Part shown: positions 2,450 to 25,512 of the stretch, one piece after another
How the letters are laid out: every line of letters starts with the position of its first letter
How positions within the stretch are numbered: position 1 is the first letter of the stretch
Assembly (NCBI GenBank): GCA_963711735.1
Contig: CAVQFA010000005.1
Span: forward strand, 335,778-371,484
Reading direction: 5' to 3'
DNA length: 35,707 bases
Source of the DNA: Candidatus Gottesmanbacteria bacterium
Lineage (GTDB): Bacteria > Patescibacteriota > Microgenomatia > UBA10105 > UBA927
Translations under genes and position numbers: made by a program
The notes under the pieces: generated by a model
The model's input: the letters and a program-made list of their open reading frames with translations, nothing else
Told to the model about the DNA's origin: nothing
Databases searched by the model: none

Positions 2450-3175
2450 ATGTCCGGACACTCGAAATGGTCAAAAGTAAAACATCAAAAAGCTACGACT
2501 GATGTTGTTAAAGCTTCATTATTTACCCGCGCAAGCCGGGCAATAACTGTGGCAGTTCAAAAAGGCGGAGGTATCACTGATCCTGAAAGGAATTTTCATC
2601 TTCGTTTAGCAATTGATCAGGCGCATGAAGTGAATATGCCGAATGATAATATAGAGAGGGCTATCGCAAAATCCGTCGGAAAGGACGCATCGTCACTCAC
2701 GAATGCCCAGTATGAAGCATACGGTCCGGGTGGCACGGCACTCCTTATCGAAACGGCATCCGACAACAATAAGCGTACCGTATCAACAATAAAAAATATT
2801 TTGGACCGTAACGGGGGCAGGTTAGGTAGTCAGGGTTCTGTTTCATTTCTTTTTACGCAGTTCGGATGCATAACAGCGCCAAAGGGCATTAAGACGTATG
2901 ACGATTGGGTAGAAATCGCATTATCTGCAGGCGCCGATGACACAAGTGAAAGTGATGATTCATTCGAACTTTTCACAAAACCCCATGATTGTATGAAGAT
3001 TAAGGATTTATTGACCCGAAAGGGGATAGATATACTCAGTGCCCAGCTTATTATGAAACCAAAAGTGACAATTGTGATTAACGAGGATACAAAGAACAGA
3101 CTGGACAACCTGTTGTCGGTATTATCCGAATGTGAGGATGTTCAGGAAATATATACAAATACGGATTCCTTATGA
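2450..3175 (+). CDS. yebC: YebC/PmpR family protein
   Basis: Canonical N-terminus MSGHSKWSKVKHQK, plus YEAYGPGG, SDNNKRT and DVQEIYTN. The true start is ATG 2450. Confidence 0.95.
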   Translation: MSGHSKWSKVKHQKATTDVVKASLFTRASRAITVAVQKGGGITDPERNFHLRLAIDQAHEVNMPNDNIERAIAKSVGKDASSLTNAQYEAYGPGGTALLIETASDNNKRTVSTIKNILDRNGGRLGSQGSVSFLFTQFGCITAPKGIKTYDDWVEIALSAGADDTSESDDSFELFTKPHDCMKIKDLLTRKGIDILSAQLIMKPKVTIVINEDTKNRLDNLLSVLSECEDVQEIYTNTDSL

Positions 3176-4017
3176 TTTCATTTATCTTACGCATTATCCA
3201 CAGAATGAAAGCGCGGTATAAACGGTGGAACAAAAGAATCGTTATATCCAAAAGACAACAGTATGTAGCAATTACCATGCTTATGTCGGTTTTCCTAATT
3301 ATTACTCAGGTATTTTCGTCGGAATTCCGGTATTTTATGGTAGGAGTCATCGCGATTATTGCATACTTTCTCACCGCGTACGCACTTCGTGAAGATCTGC
3401 GGGGTATAGAATGGTTTACGCTACTTTCACTTCCTTCTTTGTTTACAGCCGCAATTTCTATTTTCTATTTTCTGCTGCCTGAGCGATGGCTCACACGCTT
3501 ACCGATTGTTATGTTGTATGCCGTCGGATTTTATGCTCTCCTGTTGACGGAAAATATATATAATGTTGCCGTGAATCGGACGATTGCACTTCTTCGGGCA
3601 GCACATACTGTGGGTTTTCTGTTAACACTTGTCACGTTTTTTCTGCTTCTTCAGACATTATTTTCATTACATACCTATCCGTTTATCACCGTCCCGGTTG
3701 TCTTTGTGCTTGCATTTATATTATCGCTGCAGTTTTCCTGGTCATTGATCCTGGAAAATACAATTGCGGAACGGGTATGGTTTTTATCGCTTATCAGTGC
3801 AATTGTTGTTGCACAGTGTACGTTTATTTTATCGTTTTGGCCTGTAAATACAACAATACAGTCACTCTTTATTACATCCCTGTACTACAGCGTGAGCGGT
3901 ATGTCCCAACAGTATCTTCAGGAACGTTTGTATAAAAAAACAATTCAGGAATTTTTTATTGTTACTGCAATTGTATTTTTTATTCTCATATACGTTACTA
4001 ATTGGCATGGTATGTGA
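3172..4017 (+). CDS. Polytopic integral membrane protein of unknown function (possibly DUF5656-like)
   Basis: About 9-10 hydrophobic segments. ATGA overlap with the yebC stop suggests co-translation. Confidence 0.75.
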   Translation: MISFILRIIHRMKARYKRWNKRIVISKRQQYVAITMLMSVFLIITQVFSSEFRYFMVGVIAIIAYFLTAYALREDLRGIEWFTLLSLPSLFTAAISIFYFLLPERWLTRLPIVMLYAVGFYALLLTENIYNVAVNRTIALLRAAHTVGFLLTLVTFFLLLQTLFSLHTYPFITVPVVFVLAFILSLQFSWSLILENTIAERVWFLSLISAIVVAQCTFILSFWPVNTTIQSLFITSLYYSVSGMSQQYLQERLYKKTIQEFFIVTAIVFFILIYVTNWHGM

Positions 4018-4165
4018 AGGGGAGAGGGGGAGAATGGTACGGTAATAGGTGATATAGTTTGATACATTTAAGTCCTAGATAGCCTATAGTATTTGTGGAT
4101 AAGTTTTCACGATAAATTGATAATTATTTCACAGCATAAGCAAACGGACATTCATACTGCTTAAT

Positions 4166-4767
4166 TAGCCTCAATATTGTCTATTTAGTGCGTCATATTG
4201 CTCTATATTTCGTTTAGTGCTCTGTCCATGAATTGTCACCGTGCTGTTTTTTCGGAAAGATAGCCTCAAATTACTTTGTTTAGCGCGTATGAAAGCGCTA
4301 TATTTATAATATATTACAGGCAAGACACGACAAGATAGAGAATATTACGCTCAAAAGTGTTCGTTTGGCGCATTGTTATGCTCTAAAATAGAACATATGA
4401 CGATCGGTATATTCGCTGATACAAATACGGTATAGTTTACCGGGAACAGAGTGTCAAATCAGCTTTAAATTGCATTGCATGGAGCGTCATTATGCTCTAT
4501 TTCCATAATAACTTTAAATAACAGGATGTAGAACGTAGCCTCAAAAACATTAAGTTAGATTATTAATACGCTCTAAATCATGTTTGCATAAACAGCATAC
4601 AATCCGGAATGTTCTGTAAATAGGTTAGAATCAGCTTCGAAAAACACCACGCGGCGCATCAGCAAGCTCTATATGTCAACATACTCTGCAGTTCTCCATA
4701 TACATATGCCGGAATATGTATGTTATTTAGCTTCGGAAACGGCACTGCAGAGCGTAATAATGCGACG
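4166..4767 (+). repeat. Array of seven degenerate, co-oriented 40-bp units (YAGCYTCRA-N10-ttRGnGCRT-N6-GCTCTA) with unique 36-74 bp spacers
   Basis: Units start at 4166, 4261, 4346, 4460, 4536, 4632 and 4728 and align without gaps. GCTCTA is at unit positions 35-40 in 5 of 7 (GCGCTA in a sixth). Positions 21-40 form an imperfect dyad. Confidence 0.85.
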
Positions 4768-5010
4768 TCTCAACACTATAGAGAAGTGTTCATAAAAAAC
4801 CCGAACGGGACTTCTATATCATTGTAATTCTCGCTATTTTCCTGTTTGACACACAGTATACCGAACCATACGGAAATATACGCGGCTGGAAATGAACGGA
4901 AGAGATAGTGCTTCCCTGCGGTTGTACGTACGCTTATGATATATACGTGTCGATATTGCATATTTTATATCCGGTTCCGTTTTAAAAGGAGGGCATATCA
5001 TTTCTCTTAC

Positions 5011-5038
5011 ACGTCGCAGAATAATACTTTTGCGACGT
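5011..5038. other. dif-like Xer recombination site, ACGTCGCAGAA-TAATAC-TTTTGCGACGT
   Basis: 28-bp 11-6-11 architecture with arms 10/11 inverted-complementary and an AT-rich core. The arm resembles the XerC arm of E. coli dif (GGTGCGCATAA). A Xer recombinase gene lies 1.3 kb away. Confidence 0.75.
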
Positions 5039-5373
5039 TAAGTAGCCTCAGAACGCTGAGAGGGCTCCCCTTATGGTTTTTAGGACTTTTTGATGATTTG
5101 TATTTTTTTATGATTCATTATCCTTTTCTCCTTTTTATACATTTTGTATAAATATCCTCATATTCCTCTATTTATATTTCCTGTATACGAAGTTTTTGAT
5201 TTTTCCCTGCGCGTTTTTAAAACACCTTACCATTACGTTTATTTTGCAGAAAATTATCGATAATATTGTTCTATCGCTTCAGATAAATCTATGGAGAGAA
5301 AAACTACATGACCAGTTAGTCCTCAAACAGAAAATGAGCCGTCTACGGGCAATACAGGAGCTTAAAACTGAGG

Positions 5374-6315
5374 CTATTTTGAAGGTATCCTTTCTTCGTA
5401 TACACCGGCATTTTTCAGGAGTTTTTTAGCTGCGTAATAATTCGTTAAGTGATCACCGTCCGGTTCAACAAGTATTCTTACATCGGATCTGTTTTTAAAA
5501 AATTTCAGCAATTGAATTGTTTCAGAATAATTCGGTAAAGCCTGACCGGATGTAAATACCGGATTTTCAAGTGTATTATGATAGTCCGTTCCGTTAAACG
5601 GCGGGACTAAAAATCCCATATGGATTAGTTGCGTAACAGGTGCTGCTTTTTCGGTAAATGTGAGGAGATTACGCCATACTTTTTGCCTGTCGTCGGATAT
5701 GATTTGGGCTGCCGTATGGCCAAAATCATTCGCAAGCGCTGTTTTTGAATCCAAAACTGCCTGAAGTACTGATTGACTATCGGGTTGATATATCGGGATT
5801 CTGTTTGCGGGTGTACGTGAAGCTTCATTATCGATTGTGTTGTACGGTGGTACGGTTTCTATAGTCAGAGCCACATATCGTGATGCTGCGTATTTTCCGA
5901 GCTCTGACAATGATTCAACAAGAACATGATTTGAAGCATTTGTATCTGCCGGTTTCGTTAATACCTGAAAAGACATATCAGTTAAATTCATACGCATATG
6001 CGCGCGCGATCCCGGATGGATATTCACATAATGCGATTTATTTATTGCAGCAATATCAATCGTTTGTTTTATACGGATTTTTGATTGTGTACGTATGTCA
6101 TTGTCCGGATAAGACAGGTTGACCATAGTGCCGTCAGGTATGGATCCCCAGAAATGCAGATTGGTTTCAATACCCAATCTATGTGTTTCTGCAAATATAT
6201 CCGCATACATCTCAGGCTTATCTGCGTTATACCAAATTTCGCAAAAAAACGGACGGACGCGTTTTAGGTTATCTATCGCTTTTTGATCCGGTCCTGCTTT
6301 CATTCCCAATATCAT
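5374..6315 (-). CDS. Xylose isomerase-like / AP-endonuclease-2 TIM-barrel protein
   Basis: VNIHPG, TIETVP, NDFGH, QLIH and terminal LVE metal-ligand pattern. Confidence 0.7.
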   Translation of the reverse strand: MILGMKAGPDQKAIDNLKRVRPFFCEIWYNADKPEMYADIFAETHRLGIETNLHFWGSIPDGTMVNLSYPDNDIRTQSKIRIKQTIDIAAINKSHYVNIHPGSRAHMRMNLTDMSFQVLTKPADTNASNHVLVESLSELGKYAASRYVALTIETVPPYNTIDNEASRTPANRIPIYQPDSQSVLQAVLDSKTALANDFGHTAAQIISDDRQKVWRNLLTFTEKAAPVTQLIHMGFLVPPFNGTDYHNTLENPVFTSGQALPNYSETIQLLKFFKNRSDVRILVEPDGDHLTNYYAAKKLLKNAGVYEERIPSK

Positions 6316-6378: not shown

Positions 6379-7371
6379 ATGACACAGAATAAATCCCTCT
6401 CTGCACTTAGTATTGAATTTCTGGAATATTTGGAGATTGAAAAAAACGTTTCAAAACTTACAATCAGAAATTATGCTCATTATCTCAACCGTTTTCTTAC
6501 CTTTCTTTCAGGATTAGTCGTATCCCCTTCCGCAAAGACAGATGCACCTAAAAGTGAAAAATCTAAGCTTGATGCCGTCGGAATAAACGCACTCACCGGA
6601 GAGAATATCAGGGAATACAGGTTGTTCCTGTCGCGGTATGTTGATGAACACGGGATTAGCCTCAAACGTGTGACCCAGAACTATCATCTGATTGCAATAC
6701 GTTCGTTTCTGAAATATTTATTGAAACGGGATTATACTGTGATTGCTCCGGAGAAAATAGATCTTCCCAAAGCAGAATCACGTTCTTTAAAATTTTTAGA
6801 GCGTGAACAGGTTGAACGGTTGTTAAACATGCCGGAAATATCCAAAACTGACGGACTTCGTGACAAAGCAATTCTTGAAGTACTTTTTTCTACCGGACTT
6901 CGTGTATCTGAGCTCGTATCGTTGAATCGTGACCAGATCAATTTAGAGCGTCGTGAATTCGGTGTCATAGGTAAGGGCAGGCGCCCCCGTGTGGTATTCC
7001 TTTCTGAAACGGCAACGCGCTGGCTACGGCAATACCTTGCAAACCGTGATGACGCATCCCGGGCTGTATTTATCCGCTATTCAGGAAAAACACCCGATCC
7101 GACCGACACTTCCGGGAATGAGTTAAGGCTTACTGCCAGAAGCGTTCAGCGTTTAGTAGAGAAATATGTCAAAAAAGCGCGGTTGCCTCTGAAAATTACA
7201 CCGCACGGGTTACGCCACAGTTTTGCTACTGATCTTCTGACAAACGGAGCTGATTTACGTGCAATTCAGGAAATGCTCGGACATAAGAACGTTTCCACAA
7301 CGCAGATATATACACACATTACAAACCCACAACTCAAAGAAATCCATGATAAATTCCACAGACATGTCTAA
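6379..7371 (+). CDS. Tyrosine recombinase, XerC/XerD family
   Basis: SAM-like N-domain (EFLEYLEIEKNVSKLTIRNY). Catalytic motifs TGLRVSEL, GKG, HGLRHSFATDLL, LGH and TTQIYTH are all intact. Confidence 0.95.
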   Translation: MTQNKSLSALSIEFLEYLEIEKNVSKLTIRNYAHYLNRFLTFLSGLVVSPSAKTDAPKSEKSKLDAVGINALTGENIREYRLFLSRYVDEHGISLKRVTQNYHLIAIRSFLKYLLKRDYTVIAPEKIDLPKAESRSLKFLEREQVERLLNMPEISKTDGLRDKAILEVLFSTGLRVSELVSLNRDQINLERREFGVIGKGRRPRVVFLSETATRWLRQYLANRDDASRAVFIRYSGKTPDPTDTSGNELRLTARSVQRLVEKYVKKARLPLKITPHGLRHSFATDLLTNGADLRAIQEMLGHKNVSTTQIYTHITNPQLKEIHDKFHRHV

Positions 7372-11392: not shown

Positions 11393-13885
11393 TTATTTGG
11401 TAAGGCAGGTAGCTGCAGCAATAGTGTCCGATTTATCAGCAAACCGCATAAGGATGACACCGCTTGTTGCACGACCCAGACGGGGAATTGAATTAATCGG
11501 TAGTTTTACTACCTGACCTTTCGTAGACGTCAGTATGACACTTTCACAATCCTGAGGAACCAGTTGTGATACGGTAATTAAACCGGTTTTATCCTTAACT
11601 TGGGCGACTTTGATTCCCTGTCCGCCACGCCGTTGTTTCGGGAAGTCGCTCACTTTTGTCTTTTTACCTAAACCCTTTTCCATAATTGTCAGGAAATCCG
11701 ATCCTTTTGTATCAGAATTTATGATGCTCATCGATACGACAGTATCACCTTTAGAAAGAAGGATTCCACGTACGCCCATCGTATCGCGTGCGGTTGGTCT
11801 TACTTCATCTTCTTTGAACCGTATGGATTTGCCTGAACGGGCAACAAGAAGAATATCATTATCTCCGCCGGTTAACTTAGCCCAAATAAGCTCATCCCCT
11901 GATTCCAGCTTGATGGCAACAAGTCCGTTACGCCTGATATTTTCGTATTCCGTGAGTTTAGATTTTTTTACCGTACCATTTTTGGTTGCCATGACGATGT
12001 ATTTGATGCCCTTTTCTTTTTGGTCGACGGACCGAAGCGAATATGTGAGCACGGACGTAACTCTTTCCGAGGATTCTATATTTATTAGATTGATGATTGC
12101 CTGACCTTTGGATTGTCTGTTCGTTTCCGGTATATCCCAAACACGCACCTGGTATACTTTCCCTTTGTCCGTAAAGAAGAGCATATTATCATGCGTTTTA
12201 GCGGAAACAATCATATCTATTGTGTCCTCTTCTTTCGTTGTCATACCGATGACACCTTTACCCCCGCGTTCCTGAGTTTTAAATGTAGTTTTGGGGAGGC
12301 GCTTGATATATCCGGACTGACTCATTGTTATTATCGCGTCTTCGTTGGCTATCAGTTGTTCTTCAGAGAACTCTCCGACTTTGGATTTATAGACTTTTGT
12401 TTTTCTGTTATCACCGTATTTTTCTTTAAGTTTCGTCAGTTCATTTTTTATAACGAGCAGCATTTTGTCAGGATGTGCGAGAAGATCCACAAGATAATTG
12501 ATTGTTTCCCGAATCATTGCAAGTTCATCCTCAATTTTCTGGCGCTCAAGTGCCGCAAGACGCCGGAGCTGCATATCCAATATTGCCGTAGTCTGGATAT
12601 CGGTAAGTCCGAAACGCGTCATGAGTTTGACTTTTGCTTCATCGGCGTCCTTACTTTTTTTGATAATGGAAATCACTTCATCAATATGATCAACAGCTAT
12701 TTTTAATCCTTCCAGGATATGTTCACGGGCTTTTGCTTCCGCCAGTTCAAATTCACTTCGTTTACGGATAATATCCCGGCGGTGTTTAATGTATTCCTCC
12801 AAAATCGTTTTCAGATGTACCGTTTGCGGTGTATTGTCTACGAGCGCAACCATGTTGACCGGGAAAGTTGTCTGAAGAGCCGTTTGTTTAAACAGGTTGT
12901 TGAGGACCTGTTTGGGGCGTGCGTCACGTTTCAATTCAACAACGACACGGATACCCCTTCTGTCTGATTCATCGCGGAGATCCGATATGCCTTCAATTTT
13001 TTTCTCCTTGACGAGGTCTGCAATTTTTGCGACGAGGAGGGCTTTGTTTACCTGGTACGGAAGTTCCGTTATGGCAATTGCAGACTTACCCTGCCCGATA
13101 TCCTCAATTTCCGCAATACCGCGCATGACGATTTTCCCTCTCCCTGTTGCATATGCGGATTTGATTTCGTTTATATCATATATAGCGCCGCCTGTCGGGA
13201 AATCAGGACCCTGAATGAAATTCATGAGCTCCTCTAAACCCACTTCATATGATATTTCAGTTTGTCCGTCTTCTCCTTTAGTTAATTTTGATTTATCAAT
13301 CAGGTATACAATTGCATCGATAACTTCTGTTAAATTATGCGGTGGTATTTTTGTTGCCATTCCGACAGCGATACCTTCTGAACCCATGAGAAGCAGATTT
13401 GGAAGTTTTGCAGGAAGGTAATCAGGCTCATCAATCGTTCCGTCAAAATTCGGAGTGAATTTTACTGTATTTTTTTCGATATCATAGAGCATTTCGTCAG
13501 CAATGGATGCCAGTTTGCACTCCGTATACCGCATTGCAGCAGGCGGATCTCCGTCTATGGACCCGTAGTTACCCTGTCCTTCTATAAGCCGGTATCGCAT
13601 GGAGAATTCCTGTGCAAGACGTACGAGAGCTTCATATACAGCTGAATCACCATGCGGATGAAATTTACCTAAAACTTCTCCGACGACTTTAGCACTTTTT
13701 GTATACCGTGACGTATGATGTAAACCCATTTCGTGCATGGCAAACAGAATTCTCCTATGGACCGGTTTAAGACCGTCTCTGACGTCGGGAAGGGCACGCG
13801 CCACAATAACGGACATTGCGTAATCGAGGTACGATTTTTGCATTTCCGTCACTATTTCCGTTGGTAGTATTTTTCCTATTTGCAT
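11393..13885 (-). CDS. gyrA: DNA gyrase subunit A
   Basis: [22 protein letters not shown], catalytic AAMRYTE and GyrA-box QERGGKG with beta-pinwheel CTD. Start at ATG 13885. Confidence 0.97.
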
Positions 13886-13895
13886 GGCAGTTATT

Positions 13896-15923
13896 TTATT
13901 TCCCGATAAAGGAAATGACAAATGGGGCAATCAGAAGTGCCACGATTTGTACGATTTTCATCATTGGGTTGAGTGCCGGACCCGCTGTGTCTTTGAGGGG
14001 ATCACCGACGGTATCTCCCACTACAGCCGCTTTATGAGTATCTGACCCTTTTCCGCCGAAATTCCCATCTTCAATGTATTTTTTTGCGTTATCCCAAGCA
14101 CCTCCTGCGTTGCACATATAGAAAGCAAGCATAAGCCCGCTTACGACAACTCCTCCGAGAAAACCGCCCAGTGCCTCGCCGCCCAGAAGGCTTGCAGCGA
14201 CAGGCATCGTAACAACGATGAGTGCCGGTATCACGAGTTCTTTCTGTGCTGCTTTTGTAACGATCTCAACTGCCCGTGAATAATCCGGCAATTGTTTACC
14301 CTGCATGATCCCCTTTATTTCCCGGAATTGTCTCCTTACCTCTTCGACCACTTCAAACGCTGCCCTTCCGACTGATCCTATCAGCCTCGAGCTGAAAAGG
14401 AACGGGAGCGCTGCACCCAGAAGTAGTCCTATAAATACTTTCGGATTTGCAATATCAATAGCCTTCAGTCCGGTTGCTTCAAAATATGTCGCAAAAAGCG
14501 AACTTGCCGCAATTGCAGCTGATCCGACAGCAAAGCCTTTTGTGAGGGCTTTCGTGGTATTTCCGACCGCATCAAGCCCGCTTGTCACAACAGCTGCTTT
14601 CGTTTTTTCCAGACCGGCCATTTCTATCATACCCTGCGCGTTGTCGGAAATGGGACCAAACGTATCAAGAGCCATAATAATACCGGTTGTTGCAAGCATT
14701 CCCATGCCTGCAAGGGATATACCGTAAAACCCAAGGAGCGAATATCCTGCAAAAATTGCTCCTGCAACAATGAGTACTGAAACAAATGTAGATTCCATGC
14801 CTATGGATAAGCCGGAAATCAGGTTTGTTCCTGCTCCGGTTCTGGATGCTGTGGCAATTGCCACAACAGGTTTTTCTCCCGGACCGGTGTAGTATTTCGT
14901 AACATAGAGAAGAAGAATCATTGCGATGATTCCGACAACGGCTGCATATCCGGCATTAACATTCCCGAGGAGAAATACAGCAAGTCCCATGAATATGATA
15001 ATTGCCGCTCCTGCGGATACTATAAATCCGCGGATAAGCGGTTTTATCGGATCTTCCTGATCATTTTTGGCTTTCACAAAAAATGTTCCGAGTATTGACG
15101 TAAGAATTGCACCGGATCTGGCAAGAAGCGGAAATACGACACCTTTGAGGCCAAAAACGCTTCCTCCGAGAATCATCGCAGCGACAATGGTAAGGGCATA
15201 GGATTCGAAAACATCAGCAGCCATACCTGCACAATCACCCACATTGTCACCGACGTTGTCGGCAATTGTTGCAGGGTTTCTGGGGTCATCCTCAGGAATC
15301 CCCTTTTCAACTTTTCCGACGAGATCCGCTCCGACGTCAGCTGCTTTGGTAAATATTCCTCCGCCGACCCGCATGAAAAGGGCAAGAAGTGCTGCACCGA
15401 AGCCATACCCGATGAGAACCGACGTGGCTTGTTTGGTAACAACATCTGCACCCTGCGATATGAAAGTGAAGTACGACCACATATAGATAATCGAAACACC
15501 CAGAAGACCGAGTCCTACGACGAGCATTCCGTTTACCGTACCGGCACCGAATGCAATTGTGAGAGCCGCATTGAGACCTTTCATAGCAGCATTAGCAGTT
15601 CTCACATTTGCTTTGACGGCTATCCACATTCCGCAGTATCCGATGAGTGCCGAGAATGTTGCTCCGAGAAGAAAAGTTAGTGCAATACCGACACCAAGTG
15701 TGACGGATATAAGTGCAGCAAGACCAATCATGATAGGGATGACTATCCGGAATTGACTGGCGAGGTATGACATCGCTCCGTCATGTACGGCTTTGGCAAT
15801 TGCACGGAGTTTTGGGCTCCCTTCTTCTTCGCGTATGACTTTTTTTGATAAATAGAAACCGTATACCAGGGCAATAAGTGCAGTTATAGGAGCAGTGAAA
15901 AGGGCAATAATTTGAATATCCAT
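13896..15923 (-). CDS. hppA: Membrane-bound proton-translocating pyrophosphatase, predicted K+-independent
   Basis: [37 protein letters not shown] and [16 protein letters not shown] has Lys at the K+-determining position. SD AAGGAGG at 15933-15939. Confidence 0.95.
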
Positions 15924-16003
15924 ACAATCATTCCTCCTTATCTATATATACAAGGCAGTTCATTATACGAGTAAATCAGCTTCCTATCAAATTCCTTACA
16001 ATA

Positions 16004-17986
<1,983 letters not shown>

Positions 17987-18712: not shown

Positions 18713-19693
18713 ATGCCCGGAACTGCCCAGGAAATTCTTACTATTCTCGTATCAGACGGAAAACTGACAAAGTCAGCGGCTGATGAGATCAATACAGAAG
18801 CAATAAATGCGGATGTTCCGATCGAGTCTATTCTTCTTAAGCGTCATTTAATTACTGAAACCGATTTTGCAAAAGCCCGTGCAAAATCCCTGGATATCCC
18901 TTTTTTGACTCTCGCCGATCAGGCAATATCACCGGACGTCGTTAATTACATCCCTGAACCGGTTGCGCGGAAGTACGTACTGGTACCGGTTAAGTTTGAC
19001 AGTAAAACCGGTGAACTTCATGTTGCCATGGAAGATCCTTTGGATTTTCAGGTACTTGAGTTTCTTGAGAAAAAATCCGGGAAAAAAGTACGTCCCTGCA
19101 TGGCGATGAAAGAAGATATCCTTTCTGCAATTGATGCAACGTACACTCAGGGGTTGGGAGATGATGTCTCAGCAGCTCTGAAAGAAACCGCTGCAACAGA
19201 AGTGAAAACGTATGAAGCAGGAAAACTCGGAGAAGTGATCCGTGAAGCTCCTATTGCACAGATCGTTTCTGCTGCACTCGAGCAGGCTATGAGACTTAGG
19301 TCTTCCGATATTCACATCGAACCACAACCGGGAGACACGCGTGTTCGCTACAGGGTCGACGGCATATTACAGGAAAGGCTCACACTTCCGAGGCGTCTGC
19401 ATGATGCTGTGGTATCCAGAATCAAAATTTTATCAGATATGAAAATTGATGAAAAACGCATACCTCAGGACGGTCGTTTTAATTTTAAAATGGGAGATAA
19501 GGAAGTGGATCTTCGTGTTTCAACATTACCGACAGTGCACGGAGAAAAAGTTGTCATGAGGCTACTCAAGAAATCAGGAGGAGTCCCTACCCTTCCGGAG
19601 CTCGGCCTTCGGGGATTGGCGCTCAAAAACCTCGAAACGAATATGCTCCGGCCGCACGGTATTATACTCGTTACCGGTCCGACAGGTTCCGGA
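18713..19693 (+). CDS. GspE/PulE/PilB-family type IV pilus/T2SS ATPase, truncated in Walker A at the junction
   Basis: T2SSE_N-like domain (AMEDPLD), SDIHIEP, RYRVDG, PQDGRF, DLRVST and VTGPTGSG. The expected KTT is replaced by antisense read-through of an unrelated gene, so the 554-aa track ORF is artefactual. Confidence 0.92.
19688..19693. other. Junction between low-GC and high-GC sequence at a shared TCCGGA
   Basis: TCC GGA encodes Ser-Gly of the PilB Walker A on + and Ser-Gly of the ABC signature (RNLSG) on -. Composition changes abruptly at this point. Confidence 0.92.
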
Positions 19694-20897
19694 GAGGTTG
19701 CGCAACAGCTGCTCCAGCGACGGCGTCTTGATGCTGAGCCTGCGGACGTACTCCTCGGTCGCGTGCTCGACCCGCTTGGCCTGGACGAAGAGGCCCCGCG
19801 TGTAGCGGTCATAGGTCGCGAGGACCACGTTGTCCTTGACGGTCATGCCGAGCGCGAGGCCGAAGCGCTTGCGGTCCTCGGAGAGGTAGCCGATCCCGTA
19901 CGCCACCGCATCCCGTGGCGAGCGGATCACGGCGGGCCGGCCGAAGACCTCGATCGTCCCGCTCTGCGTCTCGTCGGCGCCAAAAACTGCCCGCGCGGTT
20001 TCCGTGCGTCCGGCCCCCATGAGCCCGGCAAATCCGAGGATCTCTCCCCTGCGGAGTTCGAAGCTCACGTCCCTGACCGCGTTGCCGGCGTTCAGGTGCC
20101 GGACGCGCAGCACCACTTCGGCATCCGCCGGGACGCGGCTGCGGGTCTTGGGCTCCTCGTAGATCACGCGGCCGACCATCATGTTGATGATGTCCTGCTT
20201 CGTGATCTCGGAGACGGGGCGCGGTCCCGATCGTCTCGCCGTCCCGCAGCACGGTCACCCTGTCGGCGATCCTGTGGATCTCGTCGAGGCGGTGGGAGAT
20301 GTGGATCATGGCCACGCCGCGGCGGGCGAGGTCCCGCATGATGCCGAACAGCTCTTCGATCTCCGCCTCCGTGAGCGCGGCGGTCGGCTCGTCGAGGATG
20401 AGGATCTGCAGGTTCCGCGAGACCGCCTTCGCGATCTCCACCATCTGCTGCTTGCCGACGGTGAGGCCGGCGAGGGTCGCGGCGGGGTCGATCTTCATGT
20501 TCAGCCGCGCCAGAAGTTCCGCCGCGCGGCGGTCCTGCGCCTTCTTGTCGAGGAAGACCCCGCGGCCGCGGGTGGACTCCCGCCCGATAAAGAGGTTCTG
20601 GGCCACCGTGAGGTGGTCCATCATGTTGAGCTCCTGGTGAATGATGCCGATCCCCATCGCGAGCGCGTGCGCCGGGTCGCGGGGATCGAAGAGTCGTCCG
20701 AGGTACCTGATCTCGCCCGAATCGCGCCGCTCGATGCCGGTGAGGATCTTCATGAGCGTCGACTTGCCGGCCCCGTTCTCGCCCACCAGGGCGTGGATCT
20801 CGCCCGCAGAGAGGTCGAAATCGACCGCCCTCAGCGCGTGAACGCCCGCGAACCGCTTGTCGATCCTCCGCACGGAGAGCACCTGCTCAGCCGCCAT
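19688..20897 (-). CDS. Sugar ABC transporter ATP-binding protein (RbsA/MglA type), frameshifted near 20215 and truncated at the junction
   Basis: GENGAGKST, LILDEPT and HISHRLDE. The second domain has GEILGFAGLMGAGRTE, YLSEDRK and RNLSG, and then breaks off before GNQQK. Confidence 0.9.
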
Positions 20898-21022
20898 CCT
20901 TGCCCCTGTCGCGAAGCGGTATGGTCCCACAGGACGCCTTCAATGTAAAGTGTGGAGCTCGCCGCCGGCGAGCGCCCGCGCGCCGCGGCGCGCGGCGGTG
21001 CGAGGCGGTGCGCCGCGGGGGT

Positions 21023-21052
21023 TTGACCGCCGCTGCCGGCTCACCCTACAGT
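21023..21052 (+). promoter_or_regulatory. Putative sigma70 promoter TTGACC-N18-TACAGT, with SD GGAGGAG downstream
   Basis: Lies in the divergent intergenic gap upstream of ATG 21070. Confidence 0.45.
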
Positions 21053-21069
21053 GCGGCGGGGGAGGAGTG

Positions 21070-22203
21070 ATGAAGGACAAGGTTCGCATCGGCATCATCG
21101 GCGTCGGCCAGATCGGCACCAACCATCTCAACCACTACGCGCGAGATCCCGGAGGCCCAGGTCGTGGCGGCGGCGGATCTCTTCCCCGAGAAGCTCGAAG
21201 CTGCGCGGGCGAGAGGTTCGGCATCCCCGACACCTACGGCGACTACAAGGAGCTGCTCACGCGCGACGACCTCGACGCGGTCGACGTGTGCGTGCACAAC
21301 AACAAGCACGCGCCGATCGCGATCGCGGTGCTCGAGAGCGGCAAGCACGTCTACTGCGAGAAGCCGATGGCCGGCACCTTCCGCGACGCCGAGAGCATGA
21401 TGGCCGCGGCGCGCAAGGCCGGCCGCATGCTCCACATCCAGATGGCCACGATCTACAAGCCCGAGACGCACGCCGCCAAGCGGCTCATCGACGAGGGCCA
21501 CCTCGGCCGGATCTACTACGCCCGCTCGTTCGGCTACCGCAGGCGCGGCAGGCCCTTCGTCGACGGCTACGGCACGGCCAACTTCGTCGACCGCAGCATC
21601 TCGGCGGGCGGGGCGCTCTTCGACGTGGGCATCTACCACCTCGCCCAGGTCCTCCACCTGATCGGCAACCCCGGCGTGAAGACGGTGACCGGCGCGACGC
21701 ACCAGGAGCTGGACATGTACGAGGACCGGCGCAAGTTCAGCAACTACAGCGTCGAGGAGATGGGCCTCGGCTGGGTGCGCCTGGACGGCGGCATCTCGTT
21801 CGACATCGAGGAGACCTGGGCCGTGCACCACGACGGCCAGGAGGCCAGCAAGGTGCTCGGCAGCAAGGGCGGCCTGCGCCTCGACCCGCTCACGTTCTTC
21901 TCCAGCATCGCCGACATGCCGGCGAGCAGCACCTTCGACCTCAAGGCCTCGGACACGCGCTGGCACGCCTGCTTCCCCGAGACCGCCTGGTACGACTCCT
22001 CGCAGCGCCACTGGGTCGGCGCCCTGCTCGGCCGAGGTGAAGCTGCTGCCGACCGCCGAGATCGCGCTCAACGCGGCGCTCATCAGCGAAGGGCATCTAC
22101 CAGTCGGCCGGCTCGGGCGCGAGCTCACCGCCGAGGAGATCCGCAAGCGCCTCCAAGAGCATCGCGATCGACCCGTATACGCCGGAGAAGGTGTGGAAAC
22201 AAC
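21070..22203 (+). CDS. Gfo/Idh/MocA family oxidoreductase (several frameshifts; end approximate)
   Basis: IGIIGVGQIG Rossmann motif, GKHVYCEKP and GGALFDVGIY. Confidence 0.88.
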
Positions 22204-22984
22204 ATGAAGAAGAAGGTCCCGATCGGCTTGCAGCTCTACTCGGTCCGGGCCGAGTGCGAGAAGGACCTGGCGGCGACGCTCGCCGAGGTCGCCCGCATCG
22301 GCTACCGGGGCGTCGAGCCCTGGGGCTACGACGGCTCGACGCGTGACGTGGATGGGCCACGGCGCCGCCGAGATCCGGCGCGATGCTCGACGACAACGGC
22401 CTGGCCTGCTGCGGCATCCACCTGCGGACCGAGGCGCTGCGTCGGCGAAGCCTCGCGCGCACCGTCGAGCTCAACCGGATCCTGGGCAACCGCTTTCTCA
22501 TCGTCGCGTCGGACAAGGCAGCGCATGGCCTCGACCGCAGGGCATCCGGGAATCTCGCCGGCATCCTCGACCGGCGGCCGCCGAGCGTGAGAGCGGATCG
22601 GGATGTTCGTCGGCTACCACTCCCACGGCTTCGACTTTGCGCCGGGTCGACGGCGAGATCGCGTGGGACACGGCTGTTCTCGACGGACACGCGTCGGACG
22701 TGATCATGCAGCTCGACAACGGCAACTGCGCGAGCGGCGGCGGCGACCCGATCGCGACCCTGCGCAGGTTTCCCGGCCGCGCCCGCTCCGTGCACCTCAA
22801 GGAGCACGGCGGCCCTGCCGGCTCGGTGATCGGCGAGGGCACGATGGACTGGAAGGAGACCTTCCGGCTGTGCGAGACGACGCAGAACACCGAGTGGTAC
22901 GTGGTCGAAGAAGGGTCGGCCGACGGCAGCGGCTTCGACATCCCGCGGCGCAGCCTCGAGGCTCTGCGCCGCATGGGCAAGTGA
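22204..22984 (+). CDS. Sugar phosphate isomerase/epimerase (IolE-like TIM barrel), frameshifted
   Basis: IGLQLYSVR, IGYRGVE, GYHSH, MQLDNGN, SVHLKE and YVVEEG, spread over three frames. Confidence 0.85.
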
Positions 22985-22993
22985 GGGCGGCGG

Positions 22994-24248
22994 ATGATCA
23001 CGGAAGTTCGGCGACGGCCGCGACTGGTTCTTCGAGAAGCGCTTCGGCCTGTTCGTGCACTGGGGGCTGTACGCGATCCCGGCGTGGCACGAGCAGATCC
23101 TGTGGCGCGGGGGCGTGAAGCGGCGCGACTACGAGAAGCTCGTCGCCCAGTTCAACCCGCGCAGCTACGACCCCGAGCGCTGGCTCGACGCGCTGCAGGC
23201 GGCCGGCATGGAGTACCTCTGCTTCACCACCAAGCACCACGACGGCTTCTGCATGTGGGACACCGCGCAGACCGACTACAAGGTGACGAACACGCCGTAC
23301 GGGCGGGACGTGCTCGCCATGCTGGCCGAGGCCTGCCGCAGGCGCGGCATTCTCCTCGGGCTCTACTACTCGCTGCCGGACTGGCATCACCCCAACTACC
23401 CGAACCTGGGCCGCCACCACGAGATGTTCGGCCCCCGGCCGGGCGACGAGCCCGACGAGGCGAGGTACCTCGAATACGTGCGGGCGCAGGTGCGCGAGCT
23501 GCTCACGGGCTACGGCCCGATCCACGAGATGTTCTGGGACGTGAACGTCGCCGAGTTCTCCGACCCGAGCTTCAACGCGATGGTCCGCGAGCTGCAGCCC
23601 GACTGCCTCATCAACGACCGGGGCCCGAGCCCGGGCGACTACTCGACGCCCGAGCGCCACGTGCCCGAGGGCGGCGCCTTCGAGCGCCTCACCGAGGCCT
23701 GCCAGGCCATGGGCCGCGAGAGCTGGGGCTACCGCGAGGACGAGGACTACTACAGCCACGAAGTTCCTGATGGCGAGCATCGACCGGATCATGGCGATGG
23801 GCGGCAACTACCTGCTCAACGTCGGGCCGAAGCCCGACGGCACGCTGCCCGCCGCAGTGCGTCGCGGACCTCGCGCGCATCGGGCGCTGGTACCACAGGG
23901 TCAAGGAGGCCTTGTCGGCGCCGACTCCCTGCTCCTCGATGCTGGCGGCCGGCGGCTCCTACCCCTTCCGCTACGACGACGTGCTGCTCACCCGCAAGGG
24001 CAACACCTTCTACGTGCACTGTCCGCAGGACCTCCAGACCTCGGCTATCGTGCTGCCCGGCATCGACGCGTGGCCCCGCTCCGCCGCGCTGCTCAACGAC
24101 GGCAGGCCGCTGCGCGCCGTCGTGGACACGATCCCCTGGCGGTGGAAGGAGAAGCCCTGCCTGCGGATCACCGGCCTGCCCGGTCAACGAGATCACCGAC
24201 GAGCCTCTCGTCGTGAGGCTGCAGTTCGACGACGCGGTGGCGGAGTGA
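22994..24248 (+). CDS. Alpha-L-fucosidase, GH29 (frameshifted)
   Basis: FGLFVHWGLY, TTKHHDGFCMWD, YYSLPDW, nucleophile motif FWD, INDR and GGNYLLNVGP. Confidence 0.9.
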
Positions 24249-24296
24249 ACCCGCGGGTTTGACCGCCCCGGCCGGCGGTGCTACCGTGCAGCCGCT

Positions 24297-25506
24297 ATGG
24301 AAAACCCGTCCGGTCCCTGGGAGAGCGAGCACTGGTTCTGCAGCCCTCACAACTTCGACGCCTCGATGCGCGTGGCCGATCACAAGGTCGAGCTGCACGA
24401 CATCACGGTGCGCGACGGCGAGGAGTGCGCCGACGTCGCCTTCACCGTCGACGACAAGGTGCGCATCGCCGAGGCGCTCGCCCTCGTCGGCATCCGGCGC
24501 ATGGAGCTGTTCCTCACCGTGCCCGGGCTGGCTGGAGGCCGTGCGCGCCATCATGCGGCCGCCGCCTCCCGCTCAAGCTGTACGTCACCTGGCACCCGGG
24601 CCGCGTCGAGCGGGCGCTCGAGGTCGGCGTGCGGCACATCATGGTCTGGTACCGCATCGGCGAGCACCAGCAGAAGCACGACCTCAAGACGCCGCGCGCC
24701 GCAGCTCCTCGACGAGGCCGTCGCACAGGTGGCCGCCGCGCGCAAGGCCGGCTGCGAGGTCAACCTCTTCATGCCCGGAGGCCGTGCGCGCGACCCTCGA
24801 CCAGATCAAAGAAGCGGTCCTGGCGGCCAAAGCGGCGGGCGCCTCGGCGGTCACGGTCGTCGACAGCCACGGCGTGGCGCGGCCGCCGGCCATCGGGTTC
24901 CTGGTGCGCCAGGTGCGCGAGTGGTGCGGGCTGGAGGTCGACGTGCACTGCCACAACGACTTCGGCCTGTCGACGGCCAACGTGCTCGCGGCCTACGACG
25001 CCGGCGCCGTCGGCCTGAACGTGGCGGTCAACGGCCTCGGCTACCGCGCCGGCAACGCCGCCCTGGACGAGGTCGCCACGGCGCTGCGCATCCTCTACGG
25101 CGTCGACACGGGCGTGCGCCTGGAGATGCTGCCGTGGCTGAGCGGGCTCGTCGAGGAGATCACGCGGATCCCGATCGGCTACTTCAAGCCGATCGTGGGC
25201 AAGGGCGCCTTTTCGGTGGAGCAGTGGGGCTCGGCCGCGGCCATGGAGGCCGCCGGCGTGCGGCGCTTCGCCTTCGCCTTCGAGCCCGAGGTCGTCGCGC
25301 GCAAGCCCCGGGTCGTCGTGGGCAAGTGGAGCGACGTGGGCGCGGTGGTCAAGAAGCTCACCGACTTCGGCCTGACTGCCTCGCCGGAGCAGGCGCGGGC
25401 GATCCTGGTCGAGTGCCAGCGCGCCGGCATCGCCCACCACAGGCCGCTCAACGACGACGAGTTCCTCGCGATCGCGAAGGCCGGCGGCGCGAAGACCGCG
25501 GAGTAG
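24297..25506 (+). CDS. DRE-TIM metallolyase, isopropylmalate/homocitrate/citramalate synthase-like (frameshifted)
   Basis: DITVRDGEE, HCHNDFGLSTAN and NGLGYRAGNAALDEV. No LeuA regulatory domain. Confidence 0.85.
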
Positions 25507-25512
25507 CCGGCG

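What the first reader, a model, noticed from the sequence alone, without database searches (positions are those of the whole stretch)
4166..4767. Unexplained array of seven co-oriented 40-bp bipartite sites next to a dif-like site and Xer recombinase
Seen: seven units align gap-free. 4166 TAGCCTCAA tattgtctat TTAGTGCGTC atatt GCTCTA; 4261 TAGCCTCAA attactttgt TTAGCGCGTA tgaaa GCGCTA; 4346 TACGCTCAA aagtgttcgt TTGGCGCATT gttat GCTCTA; 4460 CAGCTTTAA attgcattgc ATGGAGCGTC attat GCTCTA; 4536 TAGCCTCAA aaacattaag TTAGATTATT aatac GCTCTA; 4632 CAGCTTCGA aaaacaccac GCGGCGCATC agcaa GCTCTA; 4728 TAGCTTCGG aaacggcact GCAGAGCGTA ataat GCGACG. Block spacing is invariant, while the internal 10-nt segment and the spacers (55, 45, 74, 36, 56, 56 bp) are unrelated. 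That points to selection on geometry, not recent duplication. It does not match CRISPR repeats, attC, parS, matS or Tus-Ter consensus as I know them. Inference: a terminus-associated cis system, such as a polar fork trap, a ter-organising or segregation platform, or an accessory array for Xer recombination. An array of processed small RNAs is an alternative.
Basis: partly seen in the sequence, partly recalled or inferred. Interest (0 to 1): 0.85.

Follow-up and report, generated by a model that had tools for sequence, protein, structure and literature searches.

The report
Polar binding-site array beside chromosomal dif
Seven similar 43-bp protein-docking sites sit beside the spot where this tiny bacterium's chromosome finishes copying and resolves dimers, and a whole order of Candidate Phyla Radiation bacteria keeps the same layout, which points to undescribed chromosome-end machinery.

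Summary
Seven co-oriented units at 4166-4770 share an invariant geometry. Leave-one-out scoring ranks 5 of 7 above every one of 2.2 million genome positions, and there is no second copy in the genome.

Each unit is YAGCYTCRAAA-N7-TTTRGAGCRT-N4-ANGCKCTAAAT: one half-site-like block plus a 24-bp imperfect palindrome. The palindrome shows no base-pair covariation (70.8% paired against 71.8% in shuffles), so it reads as a double-stranded DNA protein site and not an RNA hairpin.

The array lies 250-850 bp left of a 25-bp inverted-arm site at 5013-5037. That site is single-copy in 86 of 201 genomes of the class, lies upstream of a Xer gene, and marks the GC-skew and gene-strand flip, so it is a dif site.

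Units were found in 82 of 87 genomes of the order (relatives titled Gottesmanbacteria). They are always on the same side and strand of dif.

A like palindrome follows the promoter of a second Xer paralogue. That paralogue lacks the catalytic Lys and His in 31 of 31 orthologues.

Best reading (0.33): an accessory array of pseudo-core sites, probably bound by this degenerate Xer, that controls events at dif. Main rival: a polar replication-fork barrier. The binding protein and the function are inferred, not shown.

The parts
4050..4064 (+). Left border element TGATATAGTTTGATA. It reads as TGnTATAGT, an extended -10-like promoter pointing into the array.
   Evidence: Found with up to 3 mismatches in 29 of 30 order loci, 500-1080 bp left of the 25-mer; duplicated 19 bp apart in 7 loci. 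Alignment. Promoter function is inferred from the consensus only.
4094..4133 (+). Left border module: TGTGGATAA (reverse complement of the recalled DnaA-box consensus), then TTTTCACG, then a second TTTCAC 22 bp further on.
   Evidence: TGTGGATAA (up to 1 mismatch) in 29 of 30 loci; TTTTCACG in 30 of 30, and a second copy 22-23 bp on in most. The 2-4 nt variable gap between the two motifs breaks any common reading frame. Binder unknown.
4166..4208 (+). Unit 1
   Evidence: Leave-one-out score 31.6; 0 of 2.2 M genome positions as high.
4261..4303 (+). Unit 2
   Evidence: Leave-one-out score 32.2; 0 positions as high. Perfect TAGCGC/GCGCTA arms.
4346..4388 (+). Unit 3
   Evidence: Leave-one-out score 26.2; 0 positions as high.
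4460..4502 (+). Unit 4
   Evidence: Leave-one-out score 27.2; 0 positions as high.
4536..4578 (+). Unit 5
   Evidence: Leave-one-out score 20.2; 1 position as high. Best unit under the 39-unit matrix.
4632..4674 (+). Unit 6
   Evidence: Leave-one-out score 27.6; 0 positions as high.
4728..4770 (+). Unit 7 (degenerate). Its right arm is replaced by TGCGACG, which matches the right arm of the 25-mer.
   Evidence: Leave-one-out score 15.1; 5 positions as high. The arm resemblance is read from the sequence.
4798..4807 (+). AACCCGAAMG motif between the last unit and dif
   Evidence: Present (up to 1 mismatch) in 24 of 30 order loci, in 16 of them 165-233 bp before the 25-mer, in the rest further away. 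Role unknown.
5013..5037 (+). dif-like site GTCGCAGAA-TAATACT-TTTGCGAC(G): 9-bp inverted arms around a 7-bp asymmetric centre
   Evidence: One copy and never two in 86 of 201 genomes of the class (up to 3 mismatches); 0 hits for the reversed control. GC skew is higher on its left in 20 of 21 loci. It sits at the skew sign change in single-contig genome G018. It is upstream of xer1 and on the + strand in 61 of 61 loci where it was found. Arm variants break pairing, so it is not a hairpin.
5043..5085 (+). Block-1-like TAGCCTCAG, a short hairpin and a T run just right of dif
   Evidence: AGCCTCAG-type block at +30 to +39 in 4 of 11 order loci. Terminator-like hit at 5060-5072. Weak; role unknown.
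6379..7371 (+). xer1, a Xer-type tyrosine recombinase with a complete catalytic set
   Evidence: PF00589 at 2.2e-46. XerC/XerD models score below their cut-offs. R, K, H, R, H and Y are kept in 79-81 of 81 orthologues.
3172..4017 (+). Left flank gene, a DUF5656 membrane protein (synteny anchor)
   Evidence: PF18900 at 8.3e-9. A 255-285 aa + strand ORF lies left of the gap in 19 of 21 loci.
5374..6315 (-). Right flank gene, an AP_endonuc_2 / xylose-isomerase-like TIM barrel, lying between dif and xer1
   Evidence: PF01261 at 3.2e-9. A 303-323 aa minus-strand ORF sits here in 7 of 11 order loci.

Best explanation
The array is a set of double-stranded DNA binding sites. It is neither a gene nor an RNA.

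Each unit carries a 24-bp imperfect palindrome, TTTRGAGC-N8-GCKCTAAA. This has the geometry of a tyrosine-recombinase core site: inverted arms around an AT-rich centre. A third, half-site-like block (YAGCYTCRAAA) lies in direct orientation three helical turns upstream.

Two to eight such units, all pointing the same way, fill the 250-900 bp on one side of the chromosomal dif site.

Proposed mechanism (inferred). The units are non-recombining pseudo-core sites. They are occupied by the second, catalytically degenerate Xer paralogue of this lineage (Xer2). Together they build a polar nucleoprotein arm next to dif. That arm works as accessory architecture for the Xer1-dif reaction: it fixes how two dif sites synapse, favours resolution, or hands dif to FtsK. 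Plasmid cer/psi accessory sequences and the DR1-DR2 motifs of Tn4430 do this for their core sites.

Shown: the sites, their uniqueness, their polarity, their order-wide conservation next to dif at the terminus, the absence of hairpin covariation, and the degenerate catalytic set of Xer2.

Inferred: that Xer2 is the binder, and that the output is control of recombination.
For: 1. The sites are real and unique to this locus.

2. They are conserved at the same locus.
- Units occur in 82 of 87 genomes of the order.
- In 30 of 31 loci read in detail, every full unit lies 224-917 bp left of the 25-mer and on its strand.
- In 43 loci oriented on xer1, all units are upstream of the 25-mer. These loci come from the same genome set, so they are not independent of the previous count.

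3. The 25-mer behaves as dif.
- It is single-copy in 86 of 201 genomes of the class.
- There is a skew step in 20 of 21 loci.
- It lies exactly at the skew sign change in single-contig G018, whose origin is at dnaA.
- Gene-strand bias flips there in 3 of 3 single-contig genomes.

4. The sites are DNA sites, not hairpins.
- For 10 candidate pairs over 39 units, 70.8% of cells pair against 71.8% in shuffles; 408 of 500 shuffles pair at least as much.
- The most variable pair has 15 Watson-Crick cells of 39, with 10 A-G and 7 C-T.
- G-U-type cells (38) do not outnumber A-C-type cells (30).

5. The spacing inside a unit never varies: 39 units align without a gap. Block 1 best resembles the right arm at +31 bp (r = 0.49, the top of about 110 offsets).

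6. Links to Xer2.
- The best palindrome hit outside the array in G000 lies about 100 bp upstream of xer2, just after its conserved TGATATTATAGG promoter element.
- Like palindromes scoring 14.2 or more lie there in 6 of 30 orthologous loci, against about 0.006 expected per locus. By eye, a 24-bp TTTAG-N14-CTAAA element starts 16-18 nt after the -10 in about 10 of 30.
- This is the position that the 25-mer holds before xer1. It is also the position that an 11-6-11 palindrome holds before the replacement Xer of G024.

7. Xer2 looks non-catalytic but is under selection.
- It has no Lys in the beta-hairpin in 31 of 31 orthologues, and Asn in place of the His of HxxR in 31 of 31.
- It stays 66-82% identical across the order.
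- Xer1 keeps both residues in 81 of 81.

8. In G024 the 25-mer and xer1 have been replaced by a 38%-identical Xer with its own site, yet four good units persist. The binder is therefore not Xer1, and the array goes with the locus and not with the 25-mer sequence.
Against: - No binding was tested, so Xer2 as the binder rests on position and analogy.
- The xer2-upstream palindrome was seen in only 6-10 of 30 loci. The f2 family has arrays but a leaderless xer2 with no such site.
- Xer2 orthologues also exist in families where no units were detected.
- Known accessory sequences abut their core and have a fixed architecture. Here the last unit ends 180-350 bp from dif. Unit number (1-8) and spacing (72-227 bp) vary between genera. 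That fits a tolerant platform or a roadblock better than a precise synaptic filter.
- FtsK with a gamma domain is present, so the ordinary control of Xer is available.
- The gap holds further conserved elements that this model does not use: the left border module and AACCCGAAMG.
- Which Lys of GKGxKxR is the catalytic one is recalled, not looked up. Xer2 has a Lys in neither column.
Confidence: 0.33

Rival explanations
1. Polar replication-fork barrier (Ter-like). The units bind a terminator protein and stop the fork that arrives early from the shorter replichore, so that termination happens beside dif.
For: - In four single-contig relatives the array-side arm is only 36-40% of the chromosome: 366, 411, 370 and 388 kb, against 608-700 kb for the other arm.
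- In G018 the skew sign changes exactly at the 25-mer, 143 kb from the antipode of dnaA.
- Gene-strand bias flips at the 25-mer and not at the antipode in 3 of 3 genomes.
- Tandem, co-oriented, composite asymmetric sites of variable number suit a redundant roadblock. One-sidedness is explained if only the short-arm fork needs stopping.
- Tus and RTP are unrelated to each other (recalled), so a third kind of terminator protein is conceivable.
Against: - In G227 (6 units) and G273 (5 units) the skew only steps down at the 25-mer: +0.10 to +0.03..0.05, and +0.07 to +0.007..0.044. The sign changes near the antipode, so most short-arm forks seem to pass. The step itself could come from the flip in gene orientation.
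- The four genomes are kin (3 genera of one family), so the asymmetry counts as roughly one observation.
- No RTP or Tus homologue was found in G000 at E up to 1; the genome is 90.9% complete.
- Known chromosomal Ter sites are spread over tens to hundreds of kb and lie beyond dif for the fork they stop (recalled).
Confidence: 0.22
2. Terminus-organising or segregation platform (matS/MatP-like or centromere-like). The array anchors the dif region to the division site or to a partner protein, with no direct role in strand exchange or fork arrest.
For: - It is a clustered multi-site array, unique in the genome, lying at the terminus.
- Unit spacing shows modes at 72-78, 85-89, 95-96, 100-105 and 114-116 bp. 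There is a weak periodicity near 9.6 bp (Rayleigh R = 0.57, P about 0.004 against uniform; kin are not independent). This would fit proteins lined up on one face of the DNA.
- It persists in G024 after the Xer/dif module was swapped.
Against: - No MatP homologue was found in G000.
- No SMC hinge was found in 0 of 41 genomes of the class sample. The known XerD-type role of unloading SMC at the terminus (passages of PMC12322038) therefore has no obvious client.
- Strict polarity and strict one-sidedness are not needed for an anchor.
Confidence: 0.12
3. Transcribed array. The conserved extended -10-like element at 4050-4064 drives a transcript of about 1 kb through the units. That transcript acts either as a non-coding RNA with repeated modules or as a long regulated leader of xer1, with the palindromes serving as operators or roadblocks.
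For: - TGATATAGTTTGATA is kept in 29 of 30 loci and points into the array.
- All units share one strand.
- A hairpin plus T run follows the 25-mer.
- Where no gene intervenes, xer1 lies downstream on the same strand.
- xer2 has one such palindrome between its promoter and its start codon.
Against: - There is no covariation in the only obvious helix.
- No Rfam family matches, even at E up to 10.
- Promoter-like hits are not above shuffles: 5 against 6.5.
- In G000 and 6 other order loci a gene on the opposite strand lies between dif and xer1.
- Seven operators for a housekeeping recombinase in a 1.1-Mb genome would be extravagant.
Confidence: 0.15
4. Not a functional element: chance similarity, a decayed repeat-protein gene, a degenerate CRISPR array, or a remnant of a mobile element.
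For: Unit 7 is weak. A few stray matrix hits of score 15-21.5 occur elsewhere in the 16-kb loci.
Against: - The leave-one-out and shuffle statistics argue against chance.
- The array is conserved across 40 of 41 genera.
- No ORF in the array exceeds 50 aa under code 11 or 60 aa under code 25, and unit spacings are 2, 1, 0, 1, 0, 0 modulo 3.
- Spacers of 36-74 bp and degenerate repeats do not fit CRISPR.
- There is a single locus per genome, so it is not a dispersed repeat.
Confidence: 0.02

Closest known systems
Accessory sequences of the plasmid Xer sites cer and psi, bound by ArgR/ArcA and PepA
   Same: Protein-binding DNA lies on one side of a Xer core site, with fixed orientation. It imposes selectivity for resolution (abstract of bioRxiv 10.64898/2026.02.23.706985 in the listing; the rest recalled).
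   Different: Those are about 180 bp long, abut the core, have a fixed architecture, sit on plasmids and are bound by housekeeping proteins. Here the array is chromosomal, has 2-8 repeated composite units over 200-600 bp, lies 180-350 bp from the core, and has no known binder.
Tn4430 IRS: IR1-IR2 core plus DR1-DR2 accessory TnpI-binding motifs
   Same: Extra recombinase-binding motifs lie in direct repeat next to an inverted-repeat core. They are dispensable for catalysis but impose resolution selectivity and the order of strand exchange (abstract of PMC2847244).
   Different: There the same active recombinase binds both the core and the accessory motifs, and the whole site is 116 bp (recalled). 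Here the unit motif differs from the dif arms, and the proposed binder is a separate, degenerate paralogue.
Bacillus subtilis Ter sites and RTP
   Same: Composite asymmetric sites made of imperfect inverted repeats, polar in action. One lies next to the terminator gene, which it autoregulates (recalled). That parallels the palindrome at the xer2 promoter.
   Different: No RTP homologue was found. Ter sites form two opposed groups spread over the terminus region. Here there is one tight cluster on one side only.
XerD at non-dif terminus sites in B. subtilis (SMC unloading)
   Same: A Xer protein is used as a sequence-specific terminus factor apart from recombination (passages of PMC12322038 citing Karaboja et al. 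2021; the original paper is not held).
   Different: No SMC hinge was found in 0 of 41 genomes of this class sample. Those sites resemble dif halves and are not tandem arrays (recalled).
xerS-difSL module of streptococci and lactococci
   Same: The dif site lies immediately upstream of its recombinase gene (Discussion passage of PMC1914069). Likewise the 25-mer lies upstream of xer1 in 61 of 61 loci where it was found.
   Different: This concerns the dif-xer1 pair and not the array. No array is described for difSL in that passage.

Membership tests
Chromosomal dif site (for the 25-mer at 5013-5037) | One copy per chromosome | tested here: met
   Exactly one match in each of 86 genomes, none with two; 0 matches for the reversed control.
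Chromosomal dif site (for the 25-mer at 5013-5037) | Lies at the replication terminus (skew switch) | tested here: met
   G018: the sign change falls between 112,000 and 113,001, and the site is at 112,657. There is a skew step in 20 of 21 loci. In G227 and G273 there is only a step, with the sign change near the antipode.
Chromosomal dif site (for the 25-mer at 5013-5037) | Two inverted recombinase-binding arms around a 6-8 bp centre | tested here: met
   The 9-7-9 layout is read from the sequence. Variation is concentrated in the centre and at one arm position.
Chromosomal dif site (for the 25-mer at 5013-5037) | Recombined by Xer in an FtsK-dependent way | not testable with these tools
   xer1, xer2 and ftsK with a gamma domain are present.
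Xer or tyrosine-recombinase accessory sequences | Adjacent to one side of the core, in fixed orientation | tested here: met
   30 of 31 loci; all units on one side and one strand.
Xer or tyrosine-recombinase accessory sequences | Bound by an accessory protein or extra recombinase subunits, and changes the selectivity or topology of recombination | not testable with these tools
   Only indirect evidence: the palindrome at the xer2 promoter and the degenerate Xer2.
Replication fork trap (Tus-Ter, RTP-Ter) | Two opposed groups of polar sites flanking the terminus | tested here: not met
   No inverted units lie right of the 25-mer in 31 loci.
Replication fork trap (Tus-Ter, RTP-Ter) | Homologue of Tus or RTP | tested here: not met
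   PF05472 and PF02334 give 0 hits at E up to 1 in G000, which is 90.9% complete.
Replication fork trap (Tus-Ter, RTP-Ter) | Forks stop at the sites | tested here: inconclusive
   Skew says yes in G018 and largely no in G227 and G273. Gene orientation flips at dif in 3 of 3.
CRISPR array | Near-identical repeats, spacers of uniform length, cas genes nearby | tested here: not met
   Units are 62-71% alike and spacers are 36-74 bp. No cas domain among the 10 neighbouring proteins scanned.
Structured RNA (any Rfam family, or a hairpin array) | Match to a covariance model, or compensatory base changes | tested here: not met
   No Rfam hit at the gathering threshold; the best E-value is 2. Covariation score 0.172 against 0.185 in shuffles.
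matS/MatP | MatP homologue, and a 13-bp palindrome spread over a terminus macrodomain | tested here: not met
   PF06303 gives 0 hits. The sites are clustered within 0.6 kb. The matS consensus is recalled.
Dispersed repeats (REP/BIME, MITE) | Many copies around the genome | tested here: not met
   Full units occur only at this locus in G000 and in 5 relatives listed in full.
Integron attC array | Cassette ORFs between the sites, and an integron integrase with attI | tested here: not met
   Spacers are 36-74 bp without ORFs. The integron-integrase models score far below their cut-offs for both Xer proteins. attC structure was not modelled.

The most novel reading that the evidence does not exclude
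A catalytically dead Xer paralogue (Xer2) has been co-opted as a sequence-specific terminus protein. Bound to the tandem pseudo-core sites, it forms a polar roadblock and docking arm. This arm stops the early fork of the constitutively shorter replichore right beside dif and presents dif to Xer1 and FtsK. If so, it would be a third, independently invented replication-terminator system after Tus and RTP, and one derived from a recombinase. It would be found in a lineage in which no SMC hinge was detected.
Probability: 0.1. Interest if true: 0.85.

Novelty: new variant of a known kind. Interest (0 to 1): 0.62.

Why it matters
Nothing is in print on how Candidate Phyla Radiation bacteria finish and separate their chromosomes. 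Two full-text searches combining dif, Xer or chromosome dimer resolution with Candidate Phyla Radiation or Patescibacteria listed no paper that treats both.

This report adds three things:
- A class-wide dif site paired with its recombinase gene.
- A conserved, catalytically degenerate second Xer.
- In one order, a 1-kb non-coding control region in genomes of about 1 Mb, packed with a polar array of composite sites.

If the array steers Xer recombination or fork arrest, it would be a chromosomal counterpart of plasmid and transposon accessory sites, or a new terminator system. It also gives a concrete, clonable DNA-protein pair to test in vitro from organisms that cannot be grown.

Tried and rejected
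**Readings rejected**
- tRNA or tmRNA: none in the window.
- Known RNA families: none.
- A hidden gene under code 25 (TGA = Gly): no ORF over 60 aa inside the gap.
- oriC, despite the DnaA-box-like TGTGGATAA. The origin and dnaA are on contig C3 at about 120-155 kb. Contig C5 has positive skew up to the locus, and the flanking genes converge on it.
- Block 1 as a general promoter element: 22 genome matches against about 18 expected.
- The units as sigma-70 promoters: the position that would be A-11 shows no preference, and promoter-like hits are not above shuffles.
- A leader peptide in TGTGGATAA..TTTTCACG: the 2-4 nt variable gap breaks the frame.
- A regulon for the palindrome: solitary hits in relatives lie next to unrelated genes, and two of them are copies of one repeat beside a transposase-like ORF. 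Only the association with xer2 held up.
- An integrated Xer-exploiting element: only one 25-mer per genome. Extra right-arm-like copies downstream of dif occur in G002, G018, G008 and G020 and remain unexplained.

**Steps that gave no answer**
- A simple ungapped repeat search in the gaps of other families was too insensitive; it barely sees the array in the window itself. 'No units in other families' therefore means 'not detected with this matrix'.
- RNA folds of 1051 nt gave no shuffle statistics.
- RNA or DNA runs: none was listed.
- Complex prediction, structure prediction and the large protein searches were not used, because no protein-protein claim is made.
- Supplements of papers were not opened.
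Full report
**1. The observation**

They lie in a 1,356-bp stretch with no credible ORF (4018-5373). No frame inside the array exceeds 50 aa under code 11 or 60 aa under code 25.

The window is G000:C5:335778-371484, part of a 1,097,878-bp genome in 6 contigs.

- A weight matrix built from the seven units scores them 32-41 bits. The best other position in the genome scores 19.7.
- Leave-one-out matrices remove the circularity. Five units beat all 2,195,288 positions outside the array. Unit 4536 is beaten by one position. Unit 4728 scores 15.1, with five positions at least as high.
- A degenerate consensus with up to 3 mismatches hits 6 times, against 0.01 expected from 100 shuffles.
- No tRNA and no Rfam family is present.

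**2. Relatives**

A BLAST of the gap against 41 related genomes did not find the array as such. It found two short conserved stretches, at window 4044-4133 and 5005-5054. In six relatives both were found, 0.6-0.9 kb apart.

Scanning those loci with the matrix showed the same kind of units between the two stretches. After iteration there were 39 units in 11 genomes, and they align without a single gap. The consensus is YAGCYTCRAAA-N7-TTTRGAGCRT-N4-ANGCKCTAAAT.

A sequence-only model built from the 39 units finds units in 82 of 87 genomes of the order. That is 75 of 80 in family f1, 6 of 6 in f2 plus the window's own genome, and 40 of 41 genera, with 1-12 hits per genome. In five genomes whose hits were listed in full, every full-length match lies in one cluster on one strand. 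Elsewhere there are only weak matches to the palindrome alone.

Record titles of relatives found with Xer1 read Candidatus Gottesmanbacteria, Microgenomates or Patescibacteria. Some bear titles of other phyla.

With this matrix no units were detected in 9 loci of other families of the class. Loci whose Xer1 is 63% identical or less, titled Curtiss-, Levyi- or Shapirobacteria, gave none apart from two single hits. My attempt to find other repeats there was too insensitive to count as evidence.

**3. The 3' conserved stretch is a dif site**

Its core is GTCGCACAA-TAATACT-TTTGCGAC; in the window the left arm reads GTCGCAGAA.

- With up to 3 mismatches it occurs exactly once in 86 of 201 genomes sampled from the class. 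It never occurs twice, and the reversed control never matches. One of the 86 is the unpublished genome G096.
- Variation sits in the centre and at one position of each arm. The arm changes break complementarity (C opposite A is common), so it is a protein site and not a hairpin.
- Oriented on it, GC skew is higher on the left in 20 of 21 loci.
- In the single-contig genome G018 (1,020,299 bp) skew is negative from 113 to 475 kb and positive everywhere else sampled. The origin is therefore at dnaA (479,046), and the terminus lies between 112,000 and 113,001. The site is at 112,657.
- In the window's own contig, skew is positive for 340 kb and then falls at the site. dnaA and the opposite switch are on contig C3.
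- In 80 loci oriented on xer1, the site was found in 61. It was always on the + strand and always upstream of xer1. This resembles the xerS-difSL module (PMC1914069, Discussion passage).
- G000 has two Xer-type genes and an FtsK with a gamma domain.

**4. Position of the array**

In 30 of 31 order loci read in detail, every full unit lies 224-917 bp to the left of the 25-mer and on its strand. Minus-strand hits lie 17 bp from a plus-strand unit, so they are the palindrome read backwards. A few stray hits of 15-21.5 bits occur elsewhere in the 16-kb loci. No inverted array lies on the other side.

The exception is G024, which is 100% complete and has no 25-mer. There the DUF5656 gene is followed by four good units. 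Next come a promoter-like element and a perfect 11-6-11 palindrome that abuts the start codon of a Xer only 38% identical to Xer1. The array therefore outlived a swap of the recombinase-site module.

G020 has a 25-mer with a diverged centre.

**5. DNA site or RNA hairpin**

The right two thirds of a unit form an imperfect palindrome. If it mattered as a helix, its variable positions should co-vary, and they do not.

- Over 10 pairs and 39 units, 70.8% of cells pair against 71.8% in shuffles; 408 of 500 shuffles are at least as high.
- The covariation score is 0.172 against 0.185.
- The most variable pair has 15 Watson-Crick cells of 39, alongside 10 A-G and 7 C-T.
- G-U-type cells (38) hardly exceed A-C-type cells (30), so there is no strand-specific wobble signature.

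The two halves behave as independent copies of a half-site. Block 1 looks like a third, diverged copy in direct orientation with the right arm, 31 bp away (r = 0.49, the best of about 110 offsets).

Spacing between units clusters at 72-78, 85-89, 95-96, 100-105 and 114-116 bp. This hints at helical phasing (R = 0.57 near 9.6 bp, P about 0.004). Many of these spacers are orthologous, so they are not independent.

**6. The rest of the gap**

The left border is conserved:
- TGATATAGTTTGATA, an extended -10-like TGnTATAGT, in 29 of 30 loci.
- TGTGGATAA in 29 of 30.
- TTTTCACG in 30 of 30, with a second copy 22-23 bp further on in most loci.
- AACCCGAAMG after the last unit in 24 of 30.

These elements are not explained by any reading given here.

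**7. A link to the second Xer**

The best palindrome hit outside the array in G000 lies between the conserved TGATATTATAGG promoter element of xer2 and its start codon. That promoter element occurs once in the genome.

In 30 orthologous loci, 6 have a palindrome scoring 14.2 or more in the 430 bp scanned, against about 0.006 expected per locus from the genome-wide rate. By eye, about 10 have a 24-bp TTTAG-N14-CTAAA element starting 16-18 nt after the -10.

Xer2 is found in 38 of 41 relatives and is 66-82% identical within the order. Aligned with XerD and XerA structures and with 81 Xer1 sequences:
- Xer2 keeps both Arg, the last His and the Tyr.
- It has no Lys anywhere in the beta-hairpin motif in 31 of 31 orthologues.
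- It has Asn for the His of HxxR in 31 of 31.
- Xer1 has both residues in 81 of 81.

A strongly conserved but catalytically degenerate recombinase, with a core-like site at its own promoter, is a natural candidate for the protein that sits on the array. This is inference only.

**8. Fork barrier?**

In four single-contig relatives the array-side replichore is 366, 411, 370 and 388 kb, which is 36-40% of the chromosome.

Gene-strand bias flips at the 25-mer in all three genomes sampled. In G018 the skew does too. This is what a barrier for the early fork would produce.

In G227 and G273, however, skew only steps down at the 25-mer and changes sign near the antipode of dnaA. That suggests most forks pass, and the step may simply reflect gene orientation. 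The four genomes are kin.

No Tus, RTP or MatP homologue was found in G000. No SMC hinge was found in 0 of 41 genomes of the class sample. That weakens an SMC-unloading role like the one reported for B. subtilis XerD (passages of PMC12322038).

**9. Verdict**

About 0.8 of my belief is that this is a polar array of double-stranded DNA protein-binding sites functionally tied to dif and the terminus.

Within that, I favour an accessory, recombinase-type architecture bound by Xer2 (0.33). Next comes a one-sided fork barrier (0.22), then a transcribed array or leader (0.15), then a terminus anchor (0.12).

The nearest precedents are the cer/psi accessory sequences and the DR1-DR2 motifs of Tn4430 (abstract of PMC2847244). 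None is chromosomal, tandem and variable in number like this one.

Two literature searches listed no paper on dif or Xer in this phylum.

Noticed in passing
window 19500-35707: G+C jumps from about 43% to about 68% near 19.6 kb and stays there to the end of the contig. The T2SSE/PilB-like ORF at 18677-20341 matches its Pfam model only up to residue 340 (profile positions 5-155 of 370), so the gene seems cut at the jump. This looks like a chimeric assembly join or foreign DNA. Contig C5 has other high-GC stretches at 30-50 kb and 130-210 kb.
   Followed up: partly
G000 contig C3:98389-99249 (outside the window; L034:790-1650): A second Xer paralogue with a degenerate catalytic set: no hairpin Lys, and Asn for the His of HxxR, in 31 of 31 orthologues. 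It is conserved at 66-82% identity across the order and has an almost invariant TGATATTATAGG promoter element. In family f2 the start codon follows the -10 by 8-12 nt, so the transcript looks leaderless.
   Followed up: partly
41 genomes of the class sample: No SMC hinge domain (PF06470) was found in 0 of 41 genomes, 32 of them at least 90% complete. G000 also has no MatP, Tus or RTP. The lineage may lack the usual condensin.
   Followed up: partly
G018, G227, G272, G273 (single-contig relatives): Replichores are strongly unequal. The arm from dnaA to the dif-like site on the array side is 36-40% of the chromosome in all four. Gene orientation flips at the dif-like site and not at the antipode of dnaA.
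   Followed up: partly
L087 (G024:C7:33000-37700): The 25-mer and xer1 are replaced by a Xer only 38% identical to Xer1, preceded by a perfect 11-6-11 palindrome that abuts its start codon. The array and the DUF5656 gene remain.
   Followed up: yes
L019, L021, L022 and L173, 40-110 bp right of the 25-mer: Two or three extra copies of the 25-mer's arm (CGCAAAAG / TTTTGCG-type), in both orientations, lie downstream of dif in G002, G018, G008 and G020. They could be extra recombinase-binding sites or the scar of an element that used dif.
   Followed up: no
window 11393-17968: gyrA-like (11393-13930, minus strand), H+-pyrophosphatase (13896-15923, minus strand) and gyrB-like (16004-17968, minus strand) genes lie 6-13 kb from the dif-like site, co-oriented with the fork expected from that side.
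   Followed up: no
L024 +73 and +172; L029 +80 and +180 (other families of the class): An AAAnCCCGAAA motif like the one between the last unit and dif in the order occurs twice to the right of the 25-mer in two families that lack the units.
   Followed up: no
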